Below are positions 24,471 through 50,074 of a DNA stretch of 64,000 bases, piece after piece (position 1 is the first letter of the stretch; each line of letters starts with the position of its first letter). The notes under the pieces were generated by a model, which was given only the letters and a program-made list of their open reading frames with translations, ran no database searches and was not told the origin of the DNA. The stretch is from positions 3,938 through 67,937 of the forward strand of contig JAVEEA010000072.1 in NCBI GenBank assembly GCA_030840675.1, in the 5' to 3' direction. The stretch is from Pyrinomonadaceae bacterium (GTDB lineage Bacteria > Acidobacteriota > Blastocatellia > Pyrinomonadales > Pyrinomonadaceae). The position numbers and the translations under genes were made by a program.

Positions 24471-24513
24471 AGAGTCGGGGTCAAACCCTGGCTCATAACT
24501 AAAGAGGACAACT

Positions 24514-30296: not shown

Positions 30297-30698
30297 ATGG
30301 ATTCTCAAATTGTCGGCAGCGGATGGCGCTTTCCGATTAGGCCTGATTCGACCGGTGGCCTCGGCTACTCGTCCGGGGACGAAAACGTCGAGCAGTCACT
30401 CAAGATCTTGTTGTTGACGAACCTGGGTCAGCGCGTGATGCGTACCGACTTCGGCAGTAAGGCGCCGGGCCTCGTGTTCGCGCCCGGAAATTTGCAGTAC
30501 CTCGGTCTCCTGGAAACAACCATTCGCGAAGCGGTACGCGACTGGGAACCGCGTATCGATCTGGAGGAAGTGCGTGCCGAACCCGAGCTCGACGACGAAA
30601 CTCAGATTACCGTTCACATCGGCTACCGCGTGCGACGGACCAACACGCGCAGCAATCTGGTATTTCCCTTCTATCTCGGAACAGTGGAGCGAAGTTGA
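30297..30698 (+). CDS. GPW/gp25-family baseplate wedge protein
   Basis: GSGWRFPIRPD ... VEQSLKILLLTNLGQRVMRTDFGS ... V matches the gp25 lysozyme-like pattern. Confidence 0.85.
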   Translation: MDSQIVGSGWRFPIRPDSTGGLGYSSGDENVEQSLKILLLTNLGQRVMRTDFGSKAPGLVFAPGNLQYLGLLETTIREAVRDWEPRIDLEEVRAEPELDDETQITVHIGYRVRRTNTRSNLVFPFYLGTVERS

Positions 30699-32878
30699 TG
30701 GCTCTCGACTCGATCAAGCTCGACGATCTTAGTTGGAACGAAATGGTCGTGGCCATCAGGCGGCGCATTGCCGCCGCGTCCGACGGAAACTGGACACTGC
30801 ACGCGCCTGTCGACCCGGGCATAACCCTGCTTGAGTTGTTCGCCTACCTGCTGGACCAACGCGTTTACTGGATGGACCAGGTGCCGGATTCACTGGTGCG
30901 AGGCGCGCTGTCGCTGCTGGGCGAACAACCGCGCTCCACGCGGGCGGCGGCCACAGTGGTCCATTTTCCCGAGCTCAAAAAAACGGTAGTGCTAAACGCC
31001 GGTACGGAATTGACACTCGCCCGTTCGGTACCCGCGTTGGTTTTTTCCACCGCCGCTGAAATCGCTCTGCTGCCTTTTGAGAGCGGCCGGCGGCTTAGCT
31101 TGTTTATCGATAACGTCGATCGTACCGCCGACCTGGAGCATGGGAAAGTGATGCGGTTATTTCCGCCGGCGGGTTCCGGCGAGGTCCGGATTGTCCTCAG
31201 GTTGCGTGAGCCCTTGCCGGAGAGCGCGAAAGACAAATGCTGCTCGCTGCTTTTTCAACTGCGCACGCCATCCGGGGTCGCTCCCGAGTGGGTGCCCCAG
31301 TGGTCGGCACTCGGAACAGTAACTCCGCCGGCGAAAATCTCCTGGTTCTATGGCGGCGGCGGTGGCAAACGAATCGAGTTTAGTGCCAACGAAATCAACG
31401 ACGGCACCGGCGGTTTGCGCCGCTCGGGATTGGTACTGCTGCCGTTGAAAACGGGAACCGGAACCGAAACCGACTGGTCGCCGGAATATGACGCCAAGAC
31501 GATGCTTTATTCCTATTCGCTCTGGTTGCGCGTTGAGCAGTCAACTTTCAGCGCCCCGCCGCGATTGGAACGGCTGGTACCAAATGTCGTGATCGCTTCA
31601 CACCAGCGAACAACGGCTGAACACAAACTTCACCGGGACTTTCTTCCGCTGCCCGGCAACACGCTGGACCTTGCCGATTTGCCCGAAGACAAACTCCTAA
31701 AAGATCACCCACCAATTGAAGACACGATCAAGCTCCAGATTCGCGAAGCCGATGGCCAGTGGCATCCGTGGCGACCGGTGCTGGATTTTAGTTTTCATGG
31801 TCCCTCCGATCGCGTCTTTACTACTGACCGGCTACTGGGCCAGGTTTCTTTTGGCGACGGCTTGACCGGGCGACTGCCGGTGCTCAACAACGACGGTGAT
31901 GTTCAACTAAAGGTCGAGTACAGCGTGGGCGGGGGCGTGTCCGGAAACCTCGGCGCGCATCTTGATTGGAAGATCAGTTCGGCGAAGGATGAAGCGTTAG
32001 CAAACTTGACGGGCGTTAATTTAGTGCAAACCGAGGGCGGTGCGGAACCTGAAACGATGGCTGCGGCTCGGCAGCGCGCGGGCCTGGAACTCAGGAAGCG
32101 AACCCGGGCCGTCGTGCGGGAGGACTATGAGGAGCTTGCCCGCACGATTCCCGGGGTGGCGATCAAACGGGCGTACGCGGCAGTCGGGCTGCACCCAAAT
32201 TTTCCCTGCGTTGCGATACCCGGCGCCGTGACCGTGTTCCTCGTGCCTGACGTGTCGCGGCCTGACGTGTTGAGCGAAGAGTCGTTGGAGTATGACGGAA
32301 GTAGCGTCGAGAGTGCCTTTGTTGCGGCTCCGGTACCTGACCCGGGGGCGCTCGCAATGGTGCGGGCAAAACTCGAGAAGGCTCGCCTGGCTGGCAGTGA
32401 GGTCTTCGTTTCCGCTCCGCACTATCAAGCGGTAGACCTCTTCCTCGATGTCGAATCCAATTCTCTCGACGCCGATGAACTCAGCCGGCAGATCCGGCGA
32501 CGCTTGCGTTACTTCCTCGATCCTCTCAGCGGCGGTGATGCAGGTCTTGGTTGGCCCTTTGGCGAGCCGCTGCGTCCCTCCGCGATTCTGCGTGAAGTTC
32601 AAGCAGCCCTGGGAGACGAAGGCCGCGTCGAGCGACTCTTCATCGTCTTGCCAGACAAATCCCCGAAGCGTGCAGAAGTCGACTATGGGCCGTGCGTGTC
32701 TACGCCTGTTTGTTCTGCGTCCGAAACCGCGGGCGAAACCCAGGTCGAGATGCACCCTTCACAACCAGACGAGCCTGCTTGTGCCGACGTCCTGATCGGC
32801 GAATACGATCTGGTTGAACTGCGCCGGCTCAGCTTGAATTTTAGTCGCGGTACCGAGAGCCAGGGAGGTTTGCGATGA
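30698..32878 (+). CDS. baseplate J-like protein (gp6/Afp11-like)
   Basis: ATG at 30698 overlaps the gp25 stop (TGATG). RAVVREDYEELARTIPGVAIKRAYAAVGLHPNFPCVAIPGAVTVFLVPD is a gpJ-type motif. Confidence 0.8.
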   Translation: MALDSIKLDDLSWNEMVVAIRRRIAAASDGNWTLHAPVDPGITLLELFAYLLDQRVYWMDQVPDSLVRGALSLLGEQPRSTRAAATVVHFPELKKTVVLNAGTELTLARSVPALVFSTAAEIALLPFESGRRLSLFIDNVDRTADLEHGKVMRLFPPAGSGEVRIVLRLREPLPESAKDKCCSLLFQLRTPSGVAPEWVPQWSALGTVTPPAKISWFYGGGGGKRIEFSANEINDGTGGLRRSGLVLLPLKTGTGTETDWSPEYDAKTMLYSYSLWLRVEQSTFSAPPRLERLVPNVVIASHQRTTAEHKLHRDFLPLPGNTLDLADLPEDKLLKDHPPIEDTIKLQIREADGQWHPWRPVLDFSFHGPSDRVFTTDRLLGQVSFGDGLTGRLPVLNNDGDVQLKVEYSVGGGVSGNLGAHLDWKISSAKDEALANLTGVNLVQTEGGAEPETMAAARQRAGLELRKRTRAVVREDYEELARTIPGVAIKRAYAAVGLHPNFPCVAIPGAVTVFLVPDVSRPDVLSEESLEYDGSSVESAFVAAPVPDPGALAMVRAKLEKARLAGSEVFVSAPHYQAVDLFLDVESNSLDADELSRQIRRRLRYFLDPLSGGDAGLGWPFGEPLRPSAILREVQAALGDEGRVERLFIVLPDKSPKRAEVDYGPCVSTPVCSASETAGETQVEMHPSQPDEPACADVLIGEYDLVELRRLSLNFSRGTESQGGLR

Positions 32879-34959
32879 GTGATGTTTGGTGGGGAAAGGA
32901 ATCCCGGGTGGGGACCGGGCGTCTGAAGCGCAGGAGTCAACCTCTGCCTCCGCTGCCGGTGCTCGCGCCGGCCACGCGTCAGGATGCCGGGAACGAAGTG
33001 CGCGCTCGCGTGCAGTCCTTCACGCCGGAGTGGACCAACCTGCGTCCCACGGATGCGGGCGTAGCGCTCACCCAGCTCTTCGGTGAACAGATGGAACCTG
33101 TGCTTGAACGACTAAATCGGCTACCTGATAAAACGTTTGTAGAGTTTTTAAATATCGCGGGTATCAGACCGTTGCCGGCGTCGCCGGCGGCTGCGTTGCT
33201 GGAGTTCGAGATATCCGATACCGCGCCGCAGTCCGTGTTCTTGAGTAAAGGTTTTCAAGTTGGCGCGCAACCCGCCGAAGGTCCTGACGACCTCGTGATC
33301 TTTGAAACTGAACGTGATCTGGTTGCCGCCCCGGTAAAAATAGTCGAGCTGCACCGGCAGGAAAATAATCTGTTTCAGTCGCTGGATCCCGGGGCGACGA
33401 CCGTGGGCGGGTTCCTTCCTTTTGGCAGTAGACCTGAGCCCGGTCGCGCACTCTTCATCGGTCTTGCCGGGGAAGTCGCGCCCGCACCGCGCATCTCGCT
33501 GGGCATTCGCGTCGCCGCGCCCCCGGGAGCGCCGCCGCCATTGGCGGTGGGTGGAGTAGCGCCGTTGCCGGTGACTTACGCGCCGCAATTGGAATGGAGC
33601 GTTCTTGACGGGACCGCGTTTGTGCCGGCCGAGATTTCCTTCGACGAGACCGGCGGCTTAACGCACAGCGGCGTGGTCGAGTTGCGACTGCCGCCGCAAT
33701 GGCGCGTGGGCCGGCCGCGTGGGTTAACCGGTAAGCCGTTGCGCTGGTTGCGCCTGGCAATCGTTTCCGGAACCTTTTCCGAGAGTCCGGCGCTGTCTGC
33801 GATCAAGCCGAACATGGTGCCCGCTATTGCGGCGCGCACGCTCTTCAACGAGGCGCTCGAGCCGTTACCGCAAAGTAAAAATCGCCAGATGACTTTGAGC
33901 CGGAAACCAATTCTCCCCGACTCGTTGCTAATCGAAATTGACGAAGGTGGTTTTGCGACTGCCAGCGGCCCGGAGGTGGACCTGCCGACAGCTGTTGCGA
34001 CTGCGAACGGTGAGGGAGCGAAGCAAGCGAAGACCAAACAATGGTTGCAGGTGGACGATCTCAGTATCTATGGACCAGAGGCTGAGGTCTATTCTCTTGA
34101 TCCACTCGCAGGCGTAGTTACCTTTGGCGACGGCGTGCACGGCGCGCTGGTGCCGCGGGGTTTTCGCAACGTGCGTGCAAAAACCTACCGGGTGGGCGGG
34201 GGCCGCGCGGGCGCCGTTCCCGCTGAGGCGATCAGCACGCTGCTGTCCTCCGCGCCATTCATAACCAAAGTGACGAATCCCTGGCCCGCCACCGGCGGTG
34301 TCAATAGTGAAACCAGCGATCAGGCGTTGCTGCGCGGGCCGCAGGAGATTCGTGCTCGATCGCGAGCGGTCACAATTGCAGACTACGCGCTGCTCGCTCG
34401 CCAGGCCCAGGGCGCGCTGGTGGCGCGGGCCCATGCAGTGGCTGGATTACACCCAGCGTTTCCGGGACGGCCCATTCCGGGAGTAGTGGGAATCTTCGTA
34501 GTGCCGCCGGATCGTAATGAAGGTCCGCCGACTCCCGACGAAGACAGCTTGCGCGCCGTGGCTACTTATCTAAGCCGGAATGCTGCTCCGGCAGGTGTCG
34601 AGGTGGTGGCGGCGGCGGCGCGATTTCACCGGGTGAAAATTGAAGCGGTAATCACAATTCGCAGCGGCGCCGATGCGGCCGGGACAGTGCGCGATGCGCT
34701 GCAAGCTTTGGAGGTGTACCTGCATCCTTTGACTGGAGGTGAGGATGGTTCGGGTTGGCCTTTTGGCGGTCCCTTGCGTTACCAGGCTTTGGTCCGGCGG
34801 CTGACCCGAGTCGCGGGTGTCAGTGCCGTGCCAACGCTAAACATCATTGCCGATGGTTCACGCTTTCTCTCGTGCCACGACTTCATCCCGGAACCTCATG
34901 CGTTGCTGTGGAGCGAGGTCCACCAGGTAATAGTTCAACAGCGGAGGGAGAGCAGATGA
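32875..34959 (+). CDS. second baseplate J-like / putative baseplate assembly protein (Afp12 position)
   Basis: ATGA overlap. It carries the same gpJ-type motif: SRAVTIADYALLARQAQGALVARAHAVAGLHPAFPGRPIPGVVGIFVVPP. Confidence 0.7.
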   Translation: MSDVWWGKESRVGTGRLKRRSQPLPPLPVLAPATRQDAGNEVRARVQSFTPEWTNLRPTDAGVALTQLFGEQMEPVLERLNRLPDKTFVEFLNIAGIRPLPASPAAALLEFEISDTAPQSVFLSKGFQVGAQPAEGPDDLVIFETERDLVAAPVKIVELHRQENNLFQSLDPGATTVGGFLPFGSRPEPGRALFIGLAGEVAPAPRISLGIRVAAPPGAPPPLAVGGVAPLPVTYAPQLEWSVLDGTAFVPAEISFDETGGLTHSGVVELRLPPQWRVGRPRGLTGKPLRWLRLAIVSGTFSESPALSAIKPNMVPAIAARTLFNEALEPLPQSKNRQMTLSRKPILPDSLLIEIDEGGFATASGPEVDLPTAVATANGEGAKQAKTKQWLQVDDLSIYGPEAEVYSLDPLAGVVTFGDGVHGALVPRGFRNVRAKTYRVGGGRAGAVPAEAISTLLSSAPFITKVTNPWPATGGVNSETSDQALLRGPQEIRARSRAVTIADYALLARQAQGALVARAHAVAGLHPAFPGRPIPGVVGIFVVPPDRNEGPPTPDEDSLRAVATYLSRNAAPAGVEVVAAAARFHRVKIEAVITIRSGADAAGTVRDALQALEVYLHPLTGGEDGSGWPFGGPLRYQALVRRLTRVAGVSAVPTLNIIADGSRFLSCHDFIPEPHALLWSEVHQVIVQQRRESR

Positions 34960-37100
34960 GTTGCGGCGGCGGTTCCCAGAATTTCAGATTACTCGACGGC
35001 TTCGTGGGTTGGGACCAGGCCAGCTGCGAAGGACTAGTTGGCCTGGGCTTTGACAATGCCGGCGGAGTGAAACTTGCGCAGGAACAACCGAAGTTGTCGC
35101 CGCTGGATTGTGCTAACGGCGATACTTACCTGTCAGCTGAAGCGCTACTTGCTTACTTACTGCCGCCACGACTGGCGCGTGGCTGTGGCAGCTGCGACTG
35201 GTTTCTGGTTTTTCAAAAACAACTACTGCGCCGGGATTGTTGTGCGCCGGCGTGGTACTCCGCGTGGAGCACTCGTTGTGATCAGCATTTATTAAAGGAC
35301 GCCGTGGCCGTCGCCGCGAAAGGACATCGCGTCGCGGTGGCTGACGCGCGCGCCAGGCGAATCCGGATCTGGGAAGGCGATGGGGAGCGACTGGTCGGAT
35401 CAATAAACCTGGACAGTTTATCAGCGGATTCCGACTGCGAGCCCGACGACTTCGAAAACCGGATCAACCGCATTGCCGCGCTTGCCTTCACGCCCTGGGG
35501 CCAGCTGCTGGTTGCCGACGCGGGCAGTAACTCTATTTGGAGTTTTGCAGCCGGCGGTGTGGTCCACAAAAGACTGAAAATCGCATTGCCCACCTCGCAA
35601 CCGATCAGAAACCTCGCCGTCAGCGACGACGGCCAGATGTGGGTTGTCACTGGCCACGACGACCAGTCGCTGGAACTCTGGCGTGGCAGCCGTGAAGACA
35701 GCACGTTCCAAAAGGCGTCGCTCGCAGAGCTACAGGCGACGTTCAAACCAACCGGACTCATGGCGGCAAATGAAAAAGGTTTTTGCCTTGAGCAATGTGG
35801 GCCCGAGGGAGTGGCCGTCTCTCTTTGTTTTGCTTGGAATGGTGAGCCGGCGAAAGAGCCAATCAAGTCGCCCGAACCGCCGAAGCTTCTGCTTCTGGGA
35901 CAATTGATAACGCGCGCTATCGATAGCGGAATGCCCCGCTGCCGCTGGCATCGAGTACGTCTCGACGCCGACGTCCCCTCGGGAACCACTCTGGAAATTG
36001 CAGTGGCTACCAGTGAACCTAACAGCGCGGGTGAGGAGCAGGCGCCGCAGGGTGAAGGGGCGAAAGCGGAAGGTTGGGAAAGTTTCAATGCCGGAGTACC
36101 GCATCCGACAGACTGGCAGGTAGCTCCCGCTGGGACTCTTGACTTCCTCATCAATCAGCCGCCGGGCCGTTTGCTTTACGTCCGCTTGCGACTTACCGGG
36201 AATGGCAAGATTTCGCCGGTGGTACGCCGCGTGAGGCTGGACTTTCCTCGTATCACCAGCCTGGAGCTGTTGCCCCCGGTCTATCGCGACAATCCCGAAG
36301 CCGAAGATTTTACTGAACGATTCCTGGCACTTTTCGATGCTTCGATTGGCGAGTTGGACCACGCAATCGAGCGGGCGCCGGCACTGCTCGATCCTAACGG
36401 CGTTCCCGCTGAAGTGTTGCCGTGGCTTGGCAGCTTCCTCGACTTGATTTTCGATCCCGGCTGGAGCGCGGAAATGCGCCGCAAGGTGCTGAGCGCTCTG
36501 CCGAAACTTTATCCCCAGCGAGGAACCGTCACGGGACTCAGCGAGACGATCAAACTCATCTTCGGCGTTACCCCCGCGATTCAGGAGTTGGCGATGGAAC
36601 GCAATTTCGGCAGCGTCGCCAATAACCACGGAGCACCGCAGCGCAACCAGGCGCAGCTGGGAGTGGTGCGGCTATTTGGTAAATCGCGCGCGCGCTTCCG
36701 CCTCAGCACCTCAGCGTTGGGCCAGGCGCCGCTGCGCAGTTACGGAAATCCCGACCACGATCCCTTGTTGGCCCAGGCCTTCCGCCTGCGCGTTCTCATT
36801 CCGCCACTGGAGGTCAACACTCCCGCCGCTCGGCAGAGTCTGGAGCAATTGATTACCAGTCAAAAACCGGCACACACGGTGGCCAGCATCCGCTTTGGCG
36901 GCGAGGGTTTCATCCTTGGCGATCGCTCAGCGATAGGAGTTGACACGATTTTTGGACCACCGCCGCCGGCGGTGCTGGGGAAGGCGGGCAATGTGCGTTT
37001 GAGTCGCATGAGCCTGTTGCGACCGGGCAGACGCGGCGCTTTGGGCGGCATACGTTTGGGCGAGACCAGCGTAGTGGGCGTGCAGACGGTCGCTGCTTGA
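34956..37100 (+). CDS. phage tail protein with P2 gpI-like C-terminal domain and beta-propeller-like N-terminal domain
   Basis: Start reset to ATG 34956 (ATGA overlap). The C-terminal region is LLPPVYRDNPEAEDFTERFLALFD ... VLPWLGSFLDLIFDPGWS ... LPKLYPQRGT (tail_P2_I-like). The N-terminal half has NHL/propeller-like strands (LVADAGSNSIWSF, MWVVTGHDD). Confidence 0.7.
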   Translation: MSCGGGSQNFRLLDGFVGWDQASCEGLVGLGFDNAGGVKLAQEQPKLSPLDCANGDTYLSAEALLAYLLPPRLARGCGSCDWFLVFQKQLLRRDCCAPAWYSAWSTRCDQHLLKDAVAVAAKGHRVAVADARARRIRIWEGDGERLVGSINLDSLSADSDCEPDDFENRINRIAALAFTPWGQLLVADAGSNSIWSFAAGGVVHKRLKIALPTSQPIRNLAVSDDGQMWVVTGHDDQSLELWRGSREDSTFQKASLAELQATFKPTGLMAANEKGFCLEQCGPEGVAVSLCFAWNGEPAKEPIKSPEPPKLLLLGQLITRAIDSGMPRCRWHRVRLDADVPSGTTLEIAVATSEPNSAGEEQAPQGEGAKAEGWESFNAGVPHPTDWQVAPAGTLDFLINQPPGRLLYVRLRLTGNGKISPVVRRVRLDFPRITSLELLPPVYRDNPEAEDFTERFLALFDASIGELDHAIERAPALLDPNGVPAEVLPWLGSFLDLIFDPGWSAEMRRKVLSALPKLYPQRGTVTGLSETIKLIFGVTPAIQELAMERNFGSVANNHGAPQRNQAQLGVVRLFGKSRARFRLSTSALGQAPLRSYGNPDHDPLLAQAFRLRVLIPPLEVNTPAARQSLEQLITSQKPAHTVASIRFGGEGFILGDRSAIGVDTIFGPPPPAVLGKAGNVRLSRMSLLRPGRRGALGGIRLGETSVVGVQTVAA

Positions 37101-37231: not shown

Positions 37232-38650
37232 ATGGAGTCTGAAACCAAAATCCAAGTGCAGCGCGAAGACGTTTCTGATCGCAAGCAAGCTACCGCCTGC
37301 GAGTCCCTTCCCGATTTTACCCGGTTGCGATATTTTCACGGCCAACTGCTTGGTCATCACGACTTCCAAAACGAACAAGACTACTTTCGCGAGAAGCTCA
37401 AGCTACTCAATCGTTGTCTGCAAGGTTACGGAACGGTCTGCGGTTTGAAAGTCGTCGCCGTTACGGACGACCCTGACTGTAACCCGCGCGACTACGACGC
37501 GGAGTCTCACGAGTCTGAGAATTATGAGACTCGCGACGAAGCCAAGCAGCAAGTCGAGCAGCGATACGAGCAGGACGAACGGCAAGACGAACGGCAGGAC
37601 GAACGCCGTCGCCGGCCCCTGTGCGTGGAAATCGAGTGTGGGCTGGCGCTGGATTGTGAAGGAAACGAGTTAGTCGTGCGCCATCCCTTACGCGTCGATC
37701 TATGGCAGGCGTTGAGCGAGACTGAACGAACGCAGAGTGGACCCGATCAGCGCACCAGGTTTTATCTCAGCATCTGCTATTGCGTGCAGGCGATCGATCC
37801 CGTGCGTCCGGTGCTGCCCGACGCTTGCAACGCGGTCTCCGAGTGCGTCTACAGCAAGCTGCGCGACTCGGTAAAGGTCAAGGTAACGACCCAGGAGCCG
37901 AGACGTGATCATTGCCGCGACAACTGTTGCGATAAATGCGGCGACCGCTGTCTCCTGCTGGCCGCTATCGAGGTTGGCAAAGATGGTTCACCGATCATTC
38001 ATAACGACGTGCGACGTTGGCTCACCGTTTATGAACCGGTAACCATCACTGGCATCAACTGGTATCACGGCGCCGGCTACACAGTGGCTGAAGCGCGAGC
38101 CATGTTGCGCCACGGGCTGAGTCTCAATTTCTCACGTCCGGTGCTGACTGAAACTATTACCGACGGTGTTGTCGACGCCTGGGTCATGGAAGGAGGCAGC
38201 GGGCGCTCCGGAAATATTTACAACCTGGCGTTGCGACTGGTCGTGCCGCCTGACGCGCCGACGACGACCACCTTAAGTTTCAGAAAGCCCTCCGGCGAAA
38301 CATTACAGGATGGCGATCGTGTGCTGCTGATTGTGCGCACCGATTTCATTCTCGATGAATGCTGTCGCCCGGTGGATGGCAATCACGTCGGCGGTCGCGT
38401 GCCATATTACGACCCGGATTACAACGCGGATCGGGCGAGCGCCGCCGCGGACTCCAGGAATCCCGCCCCGGACAAACCAAGAAACAGACTGCGCAACGGC
38501 AACGAGATCGAACAGCGCGCTTGTGTGACGCCGCCGCGGCGCTATGGCCCCTGGGTGTCAGGAAACAGATCGGCCGGCGACACTTTTGAAAGCTGGTTCT
38601 ACATCAAGGACCCGGATTCCTACGACGAAAGAGCGGCGACGGCAGAGTGA
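37232..38650 (+). CDS. fibre-like paralogue 1 (472 aa), function unknown
   Basis: GAGGAG RBS. The N-terminal module LRYFHGQLLGHHDFQNEQDYF...LNRCLQGYGTVCGLKV is shared with the next two genes. The protein is Cys-rich. Confidence 0.65.
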   Translation: MESETKIQVQREDVSDRKQATACESLPDFTRLRYFHGQLLGHHDFQNEQDYFREKLKLLNRCLQGYGTVCGLKVVAVTDDPDCNPRDYDAESHESENYETRDEAKQQVEQRYEQDERQDERQDERRRRPLCVEIECGLALDCEGNELVVRHPLRVDLWQALSETERTQSGPDQRTRFYLSICYCVQAIDPVRPVLPDACNAVSECVYSKLRDSVKVKVTTQEPRRDHCRDNCCDKCGDRCLLLAAIEVGKDGSPIIHNDVRRWLTVYEPVTITGINWYHGAGYTVAEARAMLRHGLSLNFSRPVLTETITDGVVDAWVMEGGSGRSGNIYNLALRLVVPPDAPTTTTLSFRKPSGETLQDGDRVLLIVRTDFILDECCRPVDGNHVGGRVPYYDPDYNADRASAAADSRNPAPDKPRNRLRNGNEIEQRACVTPPRRYGPWVSGNRSAGDTFESWFYIKDPDSYDERAATAE

Positions 38651-38750
38651 CAACCAAAGGTTCGGAGTTGCAACTTGAATGTCGGCGCAGAGCCCGCCGG
38701 CGTTAGACGACCGGTGGTGGTGACGTTTCCGTTCACGCAAGGAGATCAGA

Positions 38751-40685
38751 ATGATTCCCAACCCTACTTATAAAACCTCGGGCTGCGGTTGCGGCGGCAG
38801 CGGCGCAGTTTCAGCCACTCCCTGCGGTTGTGGCGGCGCTGACTGCGCTGCTTGTCAAGGGCAGGGTATTGTTCGTCCGCGATTTTTTGCCGGACAACTG
38901 CTCACCGAAGACGATTTGCAATTGCTGACGGAATACGTCGGTCAAAAGGATCGCTTGCACAATCGCCAACTCTTCGGCGCCGGCGTTGTGTGCGGCCTGG
39001 AAGTGACCTGTCATCCCTGTGGCGAAGGCCGCGTGCTGGTCCACCCGGGCTACGCGCTTGACTGTTGCGGTAACGACCTCACGCTTGCCTGCCAACAGAC
39101 GCTCGACATCAATGCGATGGTCCGGGCCCTGCGACGCGATCAGTTGGGAGGTTACGACTGCGGCGACCCCTGTCCCGACCCAGGCGCCGAGGTCATCCGC
39201 CCGACGACGCCGGTTCGCGGTGCGAATCAGCTCGAGTATGGACCGGTGACCCCGGCGCCGGAACCGTTGCGCTATTGTCTCTACGTGCGCTATTGCGAGC
39301 AGTTGTCCGATCCGGTGATGCCTTATTCGACCGGAGACGATTGTGGCGCCTTGAGTTGTGAACCGACGCGCGTGCGCGAAGGAGTCAAGTTTGAATTGCG
39401 CTGCCGGCCCAAAGGCGATGCGGCAAACGCGCTGCTGCAGCGACTGTGCGCCTGTCTTGGCGATCTGAACCGCTTGCCACTCGTTTACCGCTCGTTGCAG
39501 GCACTACAACGAAGTAACCGGAGCGCACAGACCATCCTGATTACTACTGACACAGGACCTGCGCCTAGACCGCTGGAAGGTATTGCCAGCGACGTTTCGA
39601 AGGCCTTCAGTGAGGTTCGAGACTGGCTGTTGGAGCGTCTTAACAATGCGCCGTACTTAACGGACTGCACGCTGCGCAACAAGGTCCATGCGATGGCGTT
39701 GCCGACCTTTGGAAAACAGATGACGGAAGCGGAGACGCGATCGTTTGTGGCCGCGACGGAGCCTTTGATCGAAGTCTTCATCAATTACCTGCGCGACTGC
39801 CTCTGCCGCGCCGTCAATCCCGCGTGTGTTCCCTGTAACGATACCGCGGTGCTGTTGGCCTGCCTCGAAGTGGACGACTGCCAGGTTGTTAAAGTTTGCA
39901 ATCTCGAGCGCACCTTCGTGTTGTCTCCGTCCGCGGTTCGCTACTGGCTGCCGCCCTTGCAACTCCTAGGCAATTTGCTTGAGCGTTTCTGCTGCGATCC
40001 GTTGGAGGTGCTGCTAACGGAAGAATCAAAACAGTCTGTGAACGTCGGTATCGGTGATTTCGACATCACTCGATTATTTAAGCAGGAGGTCATGCGAATT
40101 CTGGAAGACTCAAGTTGCATGCTTGGCAGCGAGACACTGAAGGGCCATATCGATTCAATGTTTGCCGCGAGACCCAATCAACCCACGCCGCCCGCTTCCG
40201 TTGACACCGCTCAGGCTGAGGCGATCAGGGCCGCGGCCATCAAAGAAGAAGCGGCGAAGGCCGAAGCGAGTAAAGCCGCAGCCCTCAAAGAGGAAGTTGA
40301 AAAGGCCAGGCTCGCTACCGCAGCGGCAGTGAACGCTGAAGCTGCTAAGACCGCGGCCGCCACGGCGCAGATCGTCAAGCTCGAAGCAGAGTTGGCCGAA
40401 GCCAGGAAGGCAGCCCTGCCCGAGTCTACTCCTGTTCCCGTGCCCGCAGCCGAGAGCGCAAAGAAGGACTCGAGCGCAGCAGCCGCGGTGGAAGTTAAGG
40501 CCAGCCCAGGCGCGGTTAGAAAACTTACGGGAATGCCAAAGAGAACCCGTGCTCGCAAGCAGGTAACCGCGGAGACCAAAGCCGAACCTGATGCGATCGC
40601 GACGGTCGAGCCACCCGCGGACACGGTCAGCAAACGTCTAGCCGTCCGCACTAAAACGAAGCGTGCGAAAGGAGCGAAGAAGTGA
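38751..40685 (+). CDS. fibre-like paralogue 2 (644 aa) with Cys/Gly-rich N-terminus and Ala/Lys/Glu-rich tail
   Basis: GGAGA RBS. It carries the shared module PRFFAGQLLTEDDLQLLTEYV...HNRQLFGAGVVCGLEV. Confidence 0.65.
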   Translation: MIPNPTYKTSGCGCGGSGAVSATPCGCGGADCAACQGQGIVRPRFFAGQLLTEDDLQLLTEYVGQKDRLHNRQLFGAGVVCGLEVTCHPCGEGRVLVHPGYALDCCGNDLTLACQQTLDINAMVRALRRDQLGGYDCGDPCPDPGAEVIRPTTPVRGANQLEYGPVTPAPEPLRYCLYVRYCEQLSDPVMPYSTGDDCGALSCEPTRVREGVKFELRCRPKGDAANALLQRLCACLGDLNRLPLVYRSLQALQRSNRSAQTILITTDTGPAPRPLEGIASDVSKAFSEVRDWLLERLNNAPYLTDCTLRNKVHAMALPTFGKQMTEAETRSFVAATEPLIEVFINYLRDCLCRAVNPACVPCNDTAVLLACLEVDDCQVVKVCNLERTFVLSPSAVRYWLPPLQLLGNLLERFCCDPLEVLLTEESKQSVNVGIGDFDITRLFKQEVMRILEDSSCMLGSETLKGHIDSMFAARPNQPTPPASVDTAQAEAIRAAAIKEEAAKAEASKAAALKEEVEKARLATAAAVNAEAAKTAAATAQIVKLEAELAEARKAALPESTPVPVPAAESAKKDSSAAAAVEVKASPGAVRKLTGMPKRTRARKQVTAETKAEPDAIATVEPPADTVSKRLAVRTKTKRAKGAKK

Positions 40686-41842
40686 GTACCGGCATTGAGC
40701 GACCACTCTTCTTCGAGAATCAGATCCTGGGCGCGGCGGACCTTACCGCTTCGGTGGAACATAGCCGCGGGCAGGAAGCGCGACACAATCGCTACCTGCA
40801 TCTGTGGGGCATCGCCTACGGCCTGGAACTGAGCGGCGAGGACGCTGAAGAAAACAATCAGCCGTTTAAGAAGATCACGCTCTCGGCCGGCATGGCGATC
40901 GACGGGACGGGGCGCGAGATCATTGTGCCGCAGTCAGAAGCCTTGAGCGAAAACACTTTTTCGCAGTTGCAACTTACGGCCGGACTCAACCTCGCTGAAG
41001 TTTGGTTTCCTGTTTTTCTAGTTGGTAAAGATCAACCGGCCCAACAACCACCGCTGGCAACAGCCAGGTGCGACAGCTCGGCGCCGTCGCGCAAGGTGGA
41101 AGGCTACGAGATCACGTTTCGTCGGCCGGGCGAAGCACGCACGCTGGATGAACAGGCTGCGGGCAATGTTGCTGACGGACCAGGGGCCGGCGACTGGAAG
41201 ATTCTGCTGGGCTTTGTTCAGTCGAATGCCAATGGCGACAAGTTTACAGATTTTAAGTATGAGGTTAGCGGCATCGGACGCAAGTATGCGGGCGTCCAGG
41301 CAGACGAGGTGGCGGCGCGCAGCGGTTCGTTGAAGTTGCGCACTCGGACCACGCCTGAGGCGAACAAGCCGGCGCTGCTGCTGGACGAAACGGGTGATGG
41401 GCTACTGCAATTCGGTTCGCTTGACGCGCTCGGAAGGCTACAGGCGGTCTTTAGTGTTAACGCCAAAGGTGACGTTAAGGCTGAAGGCAAAATCATCGGC
41501 GCGTTGACCACCAAAAATGTTCAGATTGAATCCGGCATCGCCACCGATGGAGTGGTGCTCCCTCTGCCGCCGGGAATCACGGAAAAACAAGTTGCGGACG
41601 GCGATGCGATTGTGCAAACGCATATCTCACTGCGAATGACTGGGGAAACATCGCCCCCGGGCGCGGCCCCCTCAACGGACCAGTGGGGCGCTTCTCCGCT
41701 GGAAGTTTGGGTCGACTCCGAGCGCCGCGTACATTGTAAGGCGCGCTGGTTTCGCATGATTGGCAGCAGCGGTCGTGTCGAAGACCACCCGGCTGCTTGC
41801 AATTATATGGTGCTCGCCTCGGTGAAGGAGACGCAGCCATGA
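40682..41842 (+). CDS. fibre-like paralogue 3 (386 aa)
   Basis: GTGA overlap. It carries the shared module RPLFFENQILGAADLTASVEH...HNRYLHLWGIAYGLEL. Confidence 0.6.
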   Translation: MSTGIERPLFFENQILGAADLTASVEHSRGQEARHNRYLHLWGIAYGLELSGEDAEENNQPFKKITLSAGMAIDGTGREIIVPQSEALSENTFSQLQLTAGLNLAEVWFPVFLVGKDQPAQQPPLATARCDSSAPSRKVEGYEITFRRPGEARTLDEQAAGNVADGPGAGDWKILLGFVQSNANGDKFTDFKYEVSGIGRKYAGVQADEVAARSGSLKLRTRTTPEANKPALLLDETGDGLLQFGSLDALGRLQAVFSVNAKGDVKAEGKIIGALTTKNVQIESGIATDGVVLPLPPGITEKQVADGDAIVQTHISLRMTGETSPPGAAPSTDQWGASPLEVWVDSERRVHCKARWFRMIGSSGRVEDHPAACNYMVLASVKETQP

Positions 41843-42468
41843 ATGAAAAAATGCAGGTGCTGTTTGCGAAACAAACTGGTCATGTGCTGGCGGCCTTTAC
41901 GCGCACCGCCGACTCTGAAAACAAACCCAAAGTCGTCGCTGCGACCGGTGGCGGTCTGGTGGTTCGCCAGCCCACTTTAGTCACAGCTTTGTCGGCTACT
42001 ATTCAGGAAATGATCGTACCTGCCGAAGCGCTGGATCTGTCAGTGGTTGATTTTGACTCGGCGGTTTTTGGTTCGCCGCGCGAGTATGTAGAAGGCGGAG
42101 GTAAAATTGCGAAGCTTGGTCCGGATACGCTCTTGTCCGTTTCCACTCCGCCACCAGCTTCATCACCAACCACTCTTGTCAGTTCCCCGGAAGTCAGCTT
42201 CAGCACCACTCGGCTCGCTATCCAAATTCCTACTAATACGGCTGATGAAAAGGGAGTGTGCGTAATTCTGGAGGAGAAAGCGCCGTTGCCGGGGGTGGCG
42301 CCGGAGCGCAGGGTGGCCCAGGGGAAGATAGCCACTGGGACACATTTTATTTCGCTTGATTGGAAGACCAGTCCTGACGGTTCCCCAGTCTCGGTTCCCA
42401 GCGGCAGTTATTTCGTTCTGGCCCTGCTGGCCGGCTGCCAGCCACTCTTTCGAACCATAACTCTTTAG
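41839..42468 (+). CDS. eCIS-associated hypothetical protein (209 aa)
   Basis: Start reset to ATG 41839 (ATGA overlap, GAAGGAG RBS). No motif recognised. Confidence 0.55.
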   Translation: MNEKMQVLFAKQTGHVLAAFTRTADSENKPKVVAATGGGLVVRQPTLVTALSATIQEMIVPAEALDLSVVDFDSAVFGSPREYVEGGGKIAKLGPDTLLSVSTPPPASSPTTLVSSPEVSFSTTRLAIQIPTNTADEKGVCVILEEKAPLPGVAPERRVAQGKIATGTHFISLDWKTSPDGSPVSVPSGSYFVLALLAGCQPLFRTITL

Positions 42469-42486: not shown

Positions 42487-44754
42487 ATGGTCGACATCAC
42501 CATCCATCGCTGCACGCTACGCATTGTTCGACACGGCGGTTGGGGCTGGGGACCAGAGCCACGCAGACTACTGCAAACTGCAATCAAGGCGTTGCCTGAG
42601 TTGCTGGAAGCGGAGCTGGGTAAACTTTGGCCCGACGATCTTGAGCTGAATTTCGCGGCGCCTGTTTCCCTAAGAATTCCTATGCGGCTCGGAGAGCTTG
42701 TGGCCGCGACCCACCGGGAAGAAGGCTTCAACTCGACCACAACGTCACCCGAGGCGCAGGCCCTGGGCCAACGAATTGCCGTCGCCGCAAGACGCGCGTT
42801 TGGTAGCGAGCAAAGTGCTGCGGTGTCTCAGTCAGAACTGGGGAGACCTGCGAAAGACGAACGCGCGATCGCTTTGCCGCTCCAGCGTGGACCGGGCAGC
42901 GCGGTCTTTGAGGTGCTGCGGTCCTGGTGTGAGGCGGGCGTGCTTACGCAACGATTGTCTGGTTTCTCAGTGACGGCCCTCGCAGCTTGGTTGGCGCAAT
43001 TGATTCAGCCTGCGCCTGGCCCAATTGCTCAAACTCCGGATGGTCCAGTCGCTTGCGAATCTGTGGGTCGCGCCGCACGCGGCGGCGTTCGGGAAGCATT
43101 GTATCCGGTTACTTCGTTTGTGACTCAACCACGCAGCGGTCACGGCGACTCTGTTCCTGCCGAAGTAATTATTCGGGTTGTTGGCGACCACGTTCGCCGG
43201 CTGCAAGACGCCGCAGAGAACCGCGCAGCCACTCTGCGACGCCGCCTAATTATCCTGATCGAAGTCATGACTGAGCTTGGCCTGCGACAATGTGATCCCC
43301 CTTTACTCGAGACTTTGCAGCGGCTGCTGCCATTGCCCGGCGCCGCGAACGTTCCCGCCAGTGAAGCACTAACGTCGCCGAAGTTCACACAAGATGAGTA
43401 CAGCTTGCCCGGTGCCGCGAACGTTCCCCCCAGTGAAGCAGAGGAAACGCGGTCAGGAGGCAGCTCCGAACAACGCACGTCAACGTCGAGTCGAGTAGCG
43501 ACGACTTTGCGAGAAATTGAAAGGGATCGTTCGAACTTTTCGCCCGCGGTTTCGCAGCCAGCGGTGGGTGCCGACCACTCGGAGACAAGGTCAGCGCAGG
43601 CTTCACTCGTCGCAGCCGAGCGCGCTTCGGAACAGTCGCAACGGTCGTCGCAAGCGAATGTCCCTGCGCTCGCGTTGCAACCGGCAATCGCGGTTCCGTT
43701 GCTTTCTGGCGTCCGCAGACTTGCGGCAGACGGAAGCAAGCAACGTGTCGTCTCAGCCCTGCCCTTCATCCTGCTTGGACCATTGTCGCGGGTCGGTTAC
43801 TTGAAGGTGCTGGCGGCAACCCTGGAAGCGGCAGACGCCGTTGCCTCGTCGTCCCTGTTTGCCGCGGCCCTTGCTTATAAAGTATTGGCGCCGCCCGCGC
43901 GCGGCTGGCGGCGTGAACCGGATGCGATCACAGCCGCGAGCGCGTTCGCGGGGTTGGCCCAGCCGGTACCCGAACCCGAGTTGGCCCAGTTAGCACGTCA
44001 CCTGTACCAGCAACTCTCGCCTTTGGACGCGCTCATCTCCGGAGCTTTGATCAGCGGGCACAACCAGCAAAAACCAATCCTGTTGTTGCGGGCGGGGACC
44101 AAAACCGAGGACGGTTTTCTTTTGGTAGACGTCGAGGGAACGTTTGCAATTCAGTGGGCCGAGGAGCTTGCCGAGCTTCGCCAAGCTCTGGTCCAACTGG
44201 ATTCTTCGTTGGTACTGGTGCCACAGGCTACGGCTGATGCCAAAGTGTTGCGCTGGCTCGCTGAGGAGGGTTTCCAGTTCGTCACCGATGCAATTCCGAT
44301 CCGTGGAGAACAGTGGCGCAACCTGAGGTGCCAGCAGGAACGCTGGTGGACCAACGAGGCGATCAGATCAGACACGTCATTGATAAAGATGGCGCGCCTG
44401 ATGCGCACGGCAGCGGAGGAAGCTGCGTCGAGCTGGGCAGCGCTCATGGTTCAGCGTCCGAGCGTGCCGCTGGCTGACGACCACAAACTCGACCGCCACC
44501 TGACGCTCGCGGCTTCGCTCGCACTCGGAACTGTGGCCTGGGAACTGTGGCGCGCTCGTGAACAAACCTCGCCGCAACTGGCGCTTGAAAGGTTCAGCGA
44601 TCTCGGAGCTCTGGTTACCTGGAATCGTGACGCTGTACACGTGACTCTCCCGCTGGGAAAACGATTTCAGGACCTTCGCGATCACGGTCTCCTCGATGAC
44701 GTGAGTGAGGTGCCGTGGTTCAACGGACGCAGGTTGACGTTCTCAACTGATTAG
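42487..44754 (+). CDS. hypothetical protein in the Afp14 (tail-length/assembly) position
   Basis: 755 aa, lying immediately before the Afp15-like ATPase. The middle is Ala/Ser/Gln-rich and probably disordered, and contains an internal 36-bp direct repeat. Confidence 0.55.
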   Translation: MVDITIHRCTLRIVRHGGWGWGPEPRRLLQTAIKALPELLEAELGKLWPDDLELNFAAPVSLRIPMRLGELVAATHREEGFNSTTTSPEAQALGQRIAVAARRAFGSEQSAAVSQSELGRPAKDERAIALPLQRGPGSAVFEVLRSWCEAGVLTQRLSGFSVTALAAWLAQLIQPAPGPIAQTPDGPVACESVGRAARGGVREALYPVTSFVTQPRSGHGDSVPAEVIIRVVGDHVRRLQDAAENRAATLRRRLIILIEVMTELGLRQCDPPLLETLQRLLPLPGAANVPASEALTSPKFTQDEYSLPGAANVPPSEAEETRSGGSSEQRTSTSSRVATTLREIERDRSNFSPAVSQPAVGADHSETRSAQASLVAAERASEQSQRSSQANVPALALQPAIAVPLLSGVRRLAADGSKQRVVSALPFILLGPLSRVGYLKVLAATLEAADAVASSSLFAAALAYKVLAPPARGWRREPDAITAASAFAGLAQPVPEPELAQLARHLYQQLSPLDALISGALISGHNQQKPILLLRAGTKTEDGFLLVDVEGTFAIQWAEELAELRQALVQLDSSLVLVPQATADAKVLRWLAEEGFQFVTDAIPIRGEQWRNLRCQQERWWTNEAIRSDTSLIKMARLMRTAAEEAASSWAALMVQRPSVPLADDHKLDRHLTLAASLALGTVAWELWRAREQTSPQLALERFSDLGALVTWNRDAVHVTLPLGKRFQDLRDHGLLDDVSEVPWFNGRRLTFSTD

Positions 44755-50010: not shown

Positions 50011-50074
50011 TCGCCAAGGTTCGTGGCTGTGCGAAGTAGCAGCTGCAACTAAACAAACGTTTGCAATCGAACGC

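What the first reader, a model, noticed from the sequence alone, without database searches (positions are those of the whole stretch)
37232..41842. Three tandem paralogues sharing a ~200-aa N-terminal module in the tail-fibre slot
Seen: three consecutive ORFs (472, 644 and 386 aa) start with the same module. The shared blocks are [RL]-x-[FY]-F-x-G/N-Q-x-L, then ...N-R-x-L...G-x-x-x-G-L-[KE]-[VL], then G-x-A-[LI]-D-x-x-G-N/R-[DE]-[LI], then a Y.Y/F....DP block. After that they diverge completely, and paralogues 1 and 2 are Cys-rich (CRDNCCDKCGDRC; CLCRAVNPACVPCND). They occupy the position where Afp13/Pvc13 fibres sit, but I recognise no adenovirus- or phage-fibre motif. Inference: a common baseplate-docking module with exchangeable distal domains, i.e. 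a previously undescribed receptor-binding or fibre family giving one particle up to three specificities.
Basis: partly seen in the sequence, partly recalled or inferred. Interest (0 to 1): 0.72.

Follow-up and report, generated by a model that had tools for sequence, protein, structure and literature searches.

The report
Three conserved eCIS baseplate-anchored fibre paralogues
Three neighbouring genes in a bacterial "injection syringe" gene cluster share a known baseplate-anchoring domain (published in 2026 as eBAP3), so the find is real but belongs to a described kind; the new point is that the trio is an ancient, fixed set and not a swappable targeting kit.

Summary
ORFs 37232-38650, 38751-40685 and 40682-41842 share an N-terminal module of about 150-200 aa (profile-profile E 1e-21 to 3e-9). 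They lie directly after the Tail_P2_I/Cis12 baseplate gene of an extracellular contractile injection system (eCIS) in a Pyrinomonadaceae (Acidobacteriota) genome.

The module is not undescribed. It hits the N-terminus of NCBIfam NF053767 (CIS13 family) and of the solved fibre or crown proteins Cis19 (7b5h) and Alg19 (9wt0). AlphaFold models match Cis19, a T6SS baseplate chain and phage receptor-binding proteins. Orthologous triplets in Amycolatopsis, Streptomyces and Goodfellowiella are catalogued as three consecutive "eBAP3" fibres by Nachmias et al. 2026. That paper also figures an operon with three fibres sharing one eBAP3 domain.

"Exchangeable distal domains" is not supported. All 77 complete triplets keep the order A-B-C and form three clean orthogroups. 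A and C are conserved over their full length across phyla (34-47% identity). Only B's charged tail varies.

Most likely the three are fixed TssK-like peripheral baseplate components docked on loops of the TssG-like Cis12. Whether they form three homotrimers or one heterotrimer is open. Verdict: a new member of a known kind, of modest interest.

The parts
37232..38650 (+). Paralogue A (472 aa): eBAP3-type shoulder module, then a Cys-rich region, an Ig-like/CopC-like beta-sandwich and a conserved C-terminal block
   Evidence: ORF and start. NCBIfam CIS13_fam N-terminal hit, E 1.6e-15. AF2 model pLDDT 81.4, pTM 0.78. Foldseek: 7b5h_AB probability 0.87; PcoC/CopC sandwich probability 0.98-1.0 over about 115 columns. 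Full-length conservation of 34-44% identity across phyla.
37304..37906 (+). Shared N-terminal module in A (aa 25-225); includes a variable acidic insert at about aa 78-128
   Evidence: hhalign boundaries; conservation and occupancy profile.
38751..40685 (+). Paralogue B (644 aa): N-terminal Cys/Gly knuckle, shoulder module, variable insert, second conserved Cys-rich block (about aa 280-420), and a variable charged tail with coiled-coil character and a basic end
   Evidence: CIS13_fam hit, E 9e-11. PDB hit to the Cis19 N-terminus. Two conserved blocks across phyla. Tail composition with no TM helix. Conserved Cys list.
38856..39416 (+). Shared N-terminal module in B (aa 36-222)
   Evidence: hhalign A~B E 1e-21; B~C E 1.4e-10.
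40682..41842 (+). Paralogue C (386 aa): shoulder module plus beta-rich C-terminal domains; few cysteines; GTG start overlaps the stop of B
   Evidence: 99%-identical Pyrinomonadaceae protein P0121. AF2 pLDDT 82.6. Foldseek PDB: Cis19 chains 7b5h_AA/AB/AC, probability 0.98-1.0, and 6giy_D, probability 0.85. BFVD: phage receptor-binding protein, E 3e-7. 34-47% identity over about 380 aa across phyla.
40688..41134 (+). Shared N-terminal module in C (aa 3-151)
   Evidence: hhalign.
34956..37100 (+). Cis12 / Tail_P2_I baseplate wedge protein (714 aa), the presumed TssG-like docking partner
   Evidence: Pfam Tail_P2_I, E 1.7e-9. NCBIfam CIS12_fam, E 3.7e-44. True start at ATG 34956. A homologue is present in 84 of 86 sources and lies just upstream of the three genes in every gene order tabulated.
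36708..37097 (+). C-terminal tail of Cis12 with about 3-4 conserved Gly-rich motifs; candidate docking loops (inferred)
   Evidence: Motifs conserved in at least 80% of 80 orthologues: RLFG.S..R.R.G.S.L, GG.GF..G..S.VGVDT, LP.PVLG.....RL....VL, G....VG..T. Loop-docking precedents: Alg12-Alg19 and TssG-TssK, phage 812 arm scaffold, eBAP3 modelling.
30695..34959 (+). Two Baseplate_J paralogues (J1 30695-32878, J2 32875-34959) that complete the wedge
   Evidence: Pfam Baseplate_J, E 3e-8 and 3e-13. Both are conserved through the lineage.

Best explanation
The three genes encode an ancient, co-inherited trio (A, B, C) of peripheral baseplate proteins of an eCIS. Each starts with the eBAP3-type, TssK-like 'shoulder' domain. 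By homology with Alg19, Cis19 and TssK, this domain trimerises around its N-terminal helices and clamps onto a loop of the TssG-like wedge protein Cis12, encoded immediately upstream. The most likely arrangement is three different homotrimers (A3, B3, C3), each docked on its own loop of the Gly-rich C-terminal tail of Cis12. That would give every wedge a fixed set of three short 'legs': A with an Ig-like sandwich, B with a charged tail prone to coiled coils, and C with a phage-RBP-like beta domain. These legs would bridge and stabilise the wedges before firing and make first contact with a surface. Shown here: the homology, fold class, gene position, orthogroup structure and conservation. Inferred: trimerisation, the docking site, the stoichiometry and the binding role.
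For: Locus identity. The cluster encodes Pvc16_N, sheath and tube twice each, a LysM tube, a VgrG-like protein, PAAR, gp25, Baseplate_J twice and Tail_P2_I. The three ORFs follow, then a WHD-AAA+ ATPase and two eCIS_core proteins.

Module identity. All three ORFs hit NCBIfam CIS13_fam at the N-terminus, E 1.6e-15 to 6e-9. The three-module profile hits the first ~60 residues of Cis19 (7b5h_AA residues 12-58, E 1.1e-4) and of Alg19 (9wt0_a residues 15-58, E 2.9e-3). The AF2 model of C matches all three Cis19 chains (probability 0.98-1.0, about 200 columns) and T6SS baseplate chain 6giy_D (probability 0.85). The model of A matches Cis19 at probability 0.87. C matches phage receptor-binding proteins in BFVD, E 3e-7.

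Published mechanism for homologues. The Alg19 homotrimer shoulder binds the C-terminal loop of Alg12 in a TssG-TssK-like way, and deleting Alg19 abolishes cell binding and makes firing more pH-sensitive (PMC13314943). eBAP3 is reported as TssK-like, with Tail_P2_I as TssG-like and 'loop-mediated attachment... up to four fibers' (PMC12923769).

Catalogue membership. Three consecutive genes are listed as eBAP3 in A. azurea, S. iranensis and G. coeruleoviolacea, the sources of L055, L032 and L082, which carry the A-B-C triplet.

Fixed trio. 77 of 86 sources carry exactly three module-bearing ORFs in the same order. The other nine are mostly cut by a contig end or fragmented by frameshifts. Best cross-locus hits are A to A, B to B and C to C in 77 of 77 loci. 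A and C are conserved over their full length across phyla.

Synteny. The order gp25-J1-J2-Cis12-A-B-C-(p223)-p755-AAA+ is conserved.

Several docking loops on one scaffold. The Cis12 tail has about 3-4 conserved Gly-rich motifs. The phage 812 arm scaffold holds four different homotrimers on serial triangular loops. Many B orthologues end in heptad-like coiled-coil sequence, which suits a B homotrimer.
Against: Sequence similarity to the solved proteins covers only about 45-75 residues with modest E-values. Foldseek TM-scores are low (about 0.2), although probabilities are high, because the multi-domain monomer models superpose poorly. The identity of chain 6giy_D as TssK was not verified. The number of docking loops in the Cis12 tail is read from sequence motifs only. 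The conserved distal domains argue that the proteins are not diversifying receptor binders, so 'fibre' may be a misnomer and the binding role is uncertain. B's coiled-coil tail is not universal: actinomycete orthologues have a Pro/Glu-rich tail with a basic end instead.
Confidence: 0.6

Rival explanations
1. A, B and C co-assemble 1:1:1 into a single pseudo-threefold heterotrimeric shoulder on one Cis12 loop. In Alg19 the three protomers of the homotrimer sit in non-equivalent environments. Here each of those positions would have been handed to its own paralogue, just as J1 and J2 would replace the two copies of Cis11.
For: Strict three-gene co-occurrence in fixed order in all 77 complete loci. 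Overlapping stop and start codons suggest coupled translation. The same lineage has also doubled Baseplate_J, sheath and tube genes, whereas the CIS-Sc wedge uses two copies of one Cis11. In AlgoCIS the three Alg19 protomers contact Alg12 asymmetrically, and Cis19 trimers are only pseudo-C3. The published catalogue modelled homotrimers only and never mentions heterotrimers.
Against: Every solved relative is a homotrimer: Alg19, Cis19, TssK, phage RBPs and the phage 812 tripods. The distal parts of A, B and C differ greatly in size and fold, which is hard to pack into one fibre. B's coiled-coil tail suits three identical chains. The Cis12 tail shows several loop-like motifs, not one. Co-occurrence and coupled translation are equally expected for three separate homotrimers.
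Confidence: 0.2
2. One reading: alternative receptor-binding fibres with a common anchor and freely exchangeable distal domains, which give one particle or a population up to three target specificities.
For: A shared anchor with different distal architectures. C resembles phage receptor-binding proteins and A carries an Ig-like sandwich. The eCIS fibre catalogue reads multi-fibre operons as target-range versatility. The wider module family (10,667 cluster representatives) includes proteins of very different lengths.
Against: Within this lineage the distal domains are not exchanged. Each position keeps the same orthologue from Acidobacteriota to Actinomycetota, Myxococcota, Planctomycetota and Proteobacteria. 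The distal blocks are as conserved as the anchor; A residues 361-380 are the best-conserved block in the protein. Hosts with very different ecologies would not be expected to keep the same three receptors.
Confidence: 0.12
3. One or more of the three are assembly-only or intracellular anchoring factors and are not parts of the released particle, in the way CisA in Streptomyces or the Cis13 membrane anchor in Anabaena act from outside the core particle.
For: CisA sits in the same post-baseplate slot and is absent from purified CIS-Sc particles. Anabaena Cis13 uses its N-terminal domain to bind the baseplate and its C-terminus to anchor in a membrane. B has a long charged, basic tail that could bind membranes or polyanions.
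Against: No transmembrane helix in A, B or C, or in the B tails of 77 loci. The shoulder fold is that of stable particle components in AlgoCIS and tCIS. The locus has the eCIS markers Pvc16_N and eCIS_core.
Confidence: 0.08

Closest known systems
eBAP3-type eCIS tail fibres (Nachmias, Wang, Feng, Jiang and Levy, Nat Commun 2026, PMC12923769; preprint 10.1101/2025.05.13.653841)
   Same: An N-terminal, shoulder-like anchor domain of about 200 aa. The genes lie directly downstream of a Tail_P2_I gene in an eCIS locus without an Afp12-type gene. The domain is TssK-like and its partner TssG-like. Operons with three consecutive eBAP3 genes are listed for the very genomes that carry orthologues of this triplet, and Supplementary Fig. 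2e shows three fibres with a common eBAP3 domain and different architectures.
   Different: The catalogue treats multi-fibre operons as signs of rapid evolution and models every fibre as a homotrimer. It does not describe the A-B-C set as three ancient orthogroups in fixed order with conserved distal domains. Acidobacteriota are not mentioned in its main text. I could not run its eBAP3 HMM, so membership rests on orthology to listed genes.
Alg19, the tail fibre of AlgoCIS (PDB 9wt0; PMC13314943, PMC8894135)
   Same: The N-terminal shoulder shares sequence motifs (profile E 2.9e-3 over residues 15-58). It docks as a trimer on the C-terminal loop of the Cis12 homologue Alg12.
   Different: Alg19 is a single 1443-aa gene with neck, middle and Ig/PKD-rich domains. 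Here there are three shorter proteins (386-644 aa) with other distal domains.
Cis19 (All3314), the crown protein of the Anabaena thylakoid-anchored CIS (PDB 7b5h; eBAP4)
   Same: Best sequence and structure match to the module. It is a trimeric baseplate attachment.
   Different: It is 1476 aa. eBAP4 loci are reported to lack Tail_P2_I, whereas this locus has it. The Anabaena system is anchored inside the cell.
TssK-TssG of the type VI secretion baseplate, and lactococcal-phage RBP shoulders
   Same: The same fold class and loop-in-trimer docking logic, by published comparison and by the Foldseek hit to 6giy_D at probability 0.85.
   Different: No Pfam or NCBIfam match to a TssK family. The context is eCIS, not T6SS. 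T6SS uses two copies of one TssK trimer per wedge, not three paralogues.
Phage 812 arm scaffold with tripod, RBP1 and RBP2 trimers (PMC13433997; 9euj)
   Same: One wedge-derived scaffold carries serial triangular docking loops, each holding a different homotrimer. A baseplate chain of phage 812 (9euj_G) is the third-ranked structural hit for C.
   Different: This is a phage of Gram-positive hosts with much larger proteins. The resemblance is mechanistic, and homology was not established here.
NCBIfam NF053767, CIS13 family contractile injection system protein
   Same: All three ORFs, and the Streptomyces and Paraburkholderia orthologues, match its first ~140 positions.
   Different: Scores of 32-65 bits fall far below the 370-bit equivalog cut-off, and the remaining ~250 positions of the model are unmatched. 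This is a related domain, not the same protein.

Membership tests
eBAP3 eCIS fibres (Nachmias et al. 2026) | An N-terminal domain of about 200 aa with a shoulder-like fold like the tCIS crown | tested here: met
   The module is N-terminal in all three ORFs and in every listed relative. AF2 models match Cis19.
eBAP3 eCIS fibres (Nachmias et al. 2026) | Gene lies downstream of a Tail_P2_I gene in an eCIS locus (Group II baseplate) | tested here: met
   Tail_P2_I/Cis12 ends 131 nt upstream of ORF1. A Cis12 homologue is present in 84 of 86 sources and lies just upstream in every tabulated gene order. The eCIS markers Pvc16_N and eCIS_core are present.
eBAP3 eCIS fibres (Nachmias et al. 2026) | Match to the authors' eBAP3 HMM | not testable with these tools
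   The HMM is not available here. Indirect support: three consecutive genes are listed as eBAP3 in the genomes that give the orthologous triplets L032, L055 and L082. Two of the A. azurea genes are also listed under eBAP4, so the two models overlap.
eBAP3 eCIS fibres (Nachmias et al. 2026) | Forms trimers that bind loops of the Tail_P2_I protein | not testable with these tools
   No multimer prediction was available. Only conserved loop-like motifs in the Cis12 tail were seen.
NCBIfam NF053767 CIS13 family (equivalog) | Whole-protein score at or above the 370-bit cut-off over the 392-position model | tested here: not met
   57.2, 41.6 and 35.5 bits, matching profile positions 2-142 only. Distant orthologues behave the same way.
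Cis19/Alg19 (eBAP4) crown or fibre proteins | Shoulder domain homologous to the N-terminus of Cis19/Alg19 | tested here: met
   Profile E 1.1e-4 and 2.9e-3. Foldseek probability 0.87-1.0.
Cis19/Alg19 (eBAP4) crown or fibre proteins | Long protein (about 1450 aa) with neck, middle and Ig/PKD chain; locus lacks Tail_P2_I | tested here: not met
   Lengths are 386-644 aa, there are no PKD/Ig Pfam hits, and Tail_P2_I is present.
T6SS TssK | Match to TssK family models and a T6SS gene context | tested here: not met
   No TssK family appears in the Pfam or NCBIfam scans. The context is eCIS. There is only a fold-level resemblance to 6giy_D at probability 0.85.
eBAP5 / DUF6519 fibres | Pfam PF20129 (DUF6519) at the N-terminus | tested here: not met
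   No hit at E up to 0.1.
Afp13/Pvc13 adenovirus-like fibres (eBAP1) | A short helical anchor of about 50 aa plus adenovirus-type beta-spiral shaft repeats | tested here: not met
   No Pfam or PHROG fibre families. Adenovirus knob matches in Foldseek are insignificant (probability 0.03-0.04). The anchor here is a domain of 150-200 aa.

The most novel reading that the evidence does not exclude
The A-B-C trio is an obligate, stoichiometric unit. One version is a 1:1:1 heterotrimeric TssK-like shoulder in which each non-equivalent protomer position has become its own paralogue, in parallel with J1/J2 replacing two copies of Cis11. That would make this widespread eCIS lineage the first contractile system known with a heteromeric shoulder complex. 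The conserved Cys4 sites in A and B might hold metal or redox-sensitive links. In this reading the three proteins are conserved firing-checkpoint or structural legs, not variable receptor binders.
Probability: 0.2. Interest if true: 0.6.

Novelty: new member of a known kind. Interest (0 to 1): 0.3.

Why it matters
For annotation, these three "hypothetical proteins", like all of their listed database relatives, can be named eBAP3/CIS13-like baseplate-anchored fibre proteins A, B and C.

For eCIS biology and engineering, the fixed order and the cross-phylum conservation of the distal domains caution against treating every eBAP3 gene as a swappable receptor-binding module. In this large lineage, found in Acidobacteriota, many Streptomyces and Amycolatopsis, Kofleriaceae, Planctomycetota and Proteobacteria, the three are probably core baseplate parts. 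Retargeting would then need to work around them.

The open stoichiometry question (three homotrimers or one heterotrimer) can be tested directly with existing multimer prediction and with culturable hosts.

Tried and rejected
- Pfam, PHROGs and PADLOC gave nothing usable for the three ORFs. There was one sub-threshold Ntox46 hit in ORF1 (15 bits against a 25-bit cut-off) and one sub-threshold match to a PHROG of unknown function in ORF2 (E 0.043). I rejected both as noise.
- Single-sequence PDB searches with ORF1 and ORF3 found nothing. Orthogroup-specific profiles hit Cis19 and Alg19 only at E about 1. The mixed three-paralogue profile was needed for significance.
- I considered the S. coelicolor CIS-Sc/CisA system as the closest relative and rejected it. 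It belongs to a different lineage, with two copies of one Cis11, CisA downstream and no fibres.
- I considered a membrane anchor like Anabaena Cis13 and rejected it, because there is no hydrophobic helix in any of the three or in 77 B tails.
- I considered an enzyme fold for ORF1 because of the L,D-transpeptidase Foldseek hits and rejected it. TM-scores are only 0.14-0.20 with rmsd 16-20 A. The confident local matches are small Ig-like or CopC-like sandwiches.
- hhalign reports only the top region, so the hint that A and B share a second Cys-rich region could not be confirmed.
- My first MAFFT run timed out and was repeated with faster settings.
Full report
**1. What is there**

Window positions 20.6-57 kb hold a complete extracellular contractile injection system (eCIS) locus on the + strand. 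In order it encodes:
- a Pvc16_N cap protein, two sheath genes and two gp19-type tube genes;
- a CIS_tube/LysM tube initiator, a VgrG-related protein, a Phage_base_V spike, PAAR and gp25;
- two Baseplate_J genes (J1, J2) and a Tail_P2_I/CIS12-like wedge protein;
- the three ORFs of the finding;
- a 223-aa ORF and a 755-aa ORF with no family hits;
- a WHD-AAA+ ATPase, two eCIS_core (DUF4157) proteins and further genes.

The flanks are ordinary chromosome: AcrB/OEP efflux genes, a GT4 glycosyltransferase and SelB. A protein 99% identical to ORF3 comes from a Pyrinomonadaceae MAG, and the closest loci are from Pyrinomonadaceae and Blastocatellia. The host is therefore an acidobacterium.

**2. Observation check**

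The three ORFs are at 37232-38650 (472 aa), 38751-40685 (644 aa) and 40682-41842 (386 aa). Each has a Shine-Dalgarno-like sequence, and the stop of ORF2 overlaps the GTG start of ORF3. Independent metagenome gene calls give the same starts.

Pairwise BLASTP gives E 7e-9, 4e-9 and 2e-3. With orthogroup profiles the shared region is:
- ORF1 25-224 against ORF2 36-222: probability 99.4%, E 1e-21;
- ORF2 38-220 against ORF3 3-150: probability 96.9%, E 1.4e-10;
- ORF1 29-225 against ORF3 5-151: probability 96.1%, E 3e-9.

The Cys-rich strings exist, and many of the cysteines are conserved in at least 94% of orthologues.

**3. What the module is**

- All three ORFs hit the first ~140 positions of NCBIfam NF053767, "CIS13 family contractile injection system protein", at E 1.6e-15, 9e-11 and 6e-9. 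All score far below the 370-bit equivalog cut-off. Streptomyces and Paraburkholderia orthologues behave the same way.
- A profile of the three modules hits two solved proteins at their extreme N-termini. These are All3314 (7b5h, residues 12-58, E 1.1e-4) and a 1443-aa "PKD domain-containing protein" (9wt0, residues 15-58, E 2.9e-3).
- The literature identifies All3314 as Cis19, the six-trimer "crown" of the Anabaena thylakoid-anchored CIS (PMC8894136).
- It identifies the 9wt0 chain as Alg19, the AlgoCIS tail fibre. The Alg19 shoulder folds like TssK and lactococcal-phage receptor-binding proteins. Its three central helices clamp the C-terminal loop of Alg12, and deleting Alg19 abolishes cell binding and destabilises the pre-firing state (PMC13314943).
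- The AlphaFold2 model of ORF3 (pLDDT 82.6) is best matched in the PDB by the three Cis19 chains (probability 0.98-1.0, about 200 columns). A phage 812 baseplate chain and T6SS baseplate chain 6giy_D (probability 0.85) follow.
- In BFVD the same model matches phage receptor-binding and tail-collar fibre proteins (E 3e-7 to 1e-4).
- The ORF1 model (pLDDT 81.4, pTM 0.78) matches Cis19 at probability 0.87. Its distal part matches small Ig-like or CopC-like sandwiches.

**4. Prior art**

Nachmias et al. (Nat Commun 2026, PMC12923769; preprint May 2025) define five N-terminal eCIS baseplate-anchor domains.
[quoted passage not shown] It is found in loci where a TssG-like Tail_P2_I gene is the adaptor, with "loop-mediated attachment" of up to four fibres.
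- 23.4% of their loci have more than one fibre gene.
- Supplementary Fig. [quoted passage not shown]
- Their eBAP3 gene table lists three consecutive genes in Amycolatopsis azurea, Streptomyces iranensis and Goodfellowiella coeruleoviolacea, among others. My loci L055, L032 and L082 come from these genomes and carry orthologues of ORF1, ORF2 and ORF3.

The module, its docking role and the three-fibre operon are therefore already described. "Previously undescribed" does not hold.

**5. What the survey adds**

I built an HMM of the module and scanned the ORFs of 85 fetched loci plus the window.
- 77 of 86 sources have exactly three module-bearing ORFs. The other nine are mostly cut by a contig end or fragmented by frameshifts.
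- The order and sizes are constant: A about 440 aa, B about 690 aa, C about 379 aa.
- In all 77 loci the best match of A in another locus is an A, of B a B, and of C a C.
- The taxa span Acidobacteriota, Actinomycetota (many Streptomyces, Amycolatopsis and relatives), Myxococcota, Planctomycetota, Alpha-, Beta- and Gammaproteobacteria and Eremiobacterota.
- Window A aligns over about 440 aa at 34-44% identity with these distant orthologues, and C aligns over about 380 aa at 34-47%.
- B keeps the module and a second block (about aa 280-420). Two inserts and the tail beyond about aa 420 vary.
- Distal blocks are as conserved as the anchor.
- Synteny is equally fixed: gp25-J1-J2-Cis12-A-B-C-(p223)-p755-AAA+. 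84 of 86 sources carry a Cis12 homologue, and in every gene order tabulated it lies just upstream of the three genes.
- An exhaustive HMMER search finds 10,667 cluster representatives carrying the module at E up to 1e-3. In every listed hit the module is N-terminal.

So the trio is an ancient, co-inherited set. It is neither a recent tandem duplication nor a cassette of exchangeable receptor-binding tips.

**6. Mechanism**

By homology, each protein should trimerise through its shoulder and seat on a loop of the wedge protein Cis12. This step is inferred.
- The last ~130 residues of Cis12 carry about 3-4 Gly-rich motifs conserved in at least 80% of 80 orthologues.
- There are precedents for serial docking loops on one scaffold. 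In phage 812, the arm scaffold holds two tripod trimers, one RBP1 trimer and one RBP2 trimer on triangular loops (PMC13433997).
- Further precedents are the TssG-like loop docking described for Alg12-Alg19 and the eBAP3 modelling.
- B tails lack any TM helix. They are charged, and in many phyla they end in heptad-like sequence that suits a homotrimeric coiled coil.

I therefore favour three homotrimers per wedge, acting as fixed legs that bridge wedges, stabilise the pre-firing state and contact surfaces (confidence about 0.6).

A 1:1:1 heterotrimer remains possible (about 0.2). It would fit the strict co-occurrence, the overlapping stop and start codons, and the lineage's habit of doubling genes for homomeric parts. 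J1/J2 is one example, since CIS-Sc uses two copies of one Cis11. No solved relative is heteromeric, however, and I could not run multimer models.

**7. Comparison and verdict**

The proteins work like eBAP3, Alg19, Cis19 and TssK shoulders.
- Membership in eBAP3 is met on fold, position and context, and through orthology to listed genes. The authors' HMM could not be run.
- Membership in the NCBIfam CIS13 equivalog, in eBAP4 (Cis19/Alg19), in TssK, in DUF6519 (eBAP5) and in Afp13/Pvc13 is not met.
- The finding is a new member, from a Pyrinomonadaceae genome, of a known kind. The modest added insight is that this particular triplet is a conserved core feature of a large eCIS lineage.

Noticed in passing
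window 30695-34959 (J1 30695-32878, J2 32875-34959); also 21927-27121: The lineage carries paired paralogues for parts that are homomeric elsewhere: two Baseplate_J genes, two sheath genes (847 and 548 aa) and two gp19-type tube genes plus a LysM tube. J1 and J2 are both kept in most of the 86 sampled sources. The CIS-Sc wedge uses two copies of a single Cis11, so J1 and J2 may fill the two non-equivalent positions.
   Followed up: partly
window 42487-44754: A 755-aa ORF with no Pfam, NCBIfam, PHROG or PADLOC hit is conserved in 72 of 86 sources. It lies between the fibre genes and the AAA+ ATPase, which is the slot of the Afp14 tape-measure protein.
   Followed up: partly
window 41836-42468: A 210-223-aa ORF lies directly after paralogue C and has no family hit. 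It was found in only 16 of 86 sources. The position is typical of a fibre-assembly chaperone, but this was not tested.
   Followed up: no
window 52205-53374: A protein like prolipoprotein diacylglyceryl transferase (Pfam LGT, E 5e-14) sits at the cargo end of the eCIS locus, after two eCIS_core/DUF4157 proteins (47055-49352, 49991-52117) and before a 1279-aa ORF. A homologue was seen in only 2 of 86 sources. It could be a cargo or an unrelated insertion.
   Followed up: no
window 38751-38870 (ORF2 aa 1-40) and the modules of ORF1 and ORF2: Paralogue B has a conserved N-terminal Cys/Gly knuckle (GCGCGG..C.CG...C..C) ahead of the module. A and B share four conserved cysteines inside the module (A C70, C142, C199, C205; B C81, C105, C198, C203), and C keeps only one (C130). 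This suggests a Cys4 metal site or disulfides that were lost in C.
   Followed up: partly
window 34755-34956: The mechanical ORF for Cis12 starts at TTG 34755 (781 aa). The real start is almost certainly ATG 34956 (714 aa). It has a GGAGGGA Shine-Dalgarno-like sequence, overlaps the J2 stop as ATGA, and matches the metagenome gene call.
   Followed up: yes
window 37463-37615 (ORF1 aa 78-128): An acidic, low-complexity insert (DERQDERQDERRRR and similar) lies inside the shoulder module of A. It is predicted partly helical and is variable or absent in orthologues (occupancy about 0.5-0.6).
   Followed up: partly
L004 and L005 (ENA long-read metagenome contigs): The module-bearing genes in these two loci appear split into several short ORFs, with five module hits in L004. 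These are probably frameshift errors in long-read assemblies, not real extra paralogues.
   Followed up: no
window 12135-14051: A full-length SelB (selenocysteine-specific elongation factor) lies upstream of the locus, so the host probably makes selenoproteins.
   Followed up: no
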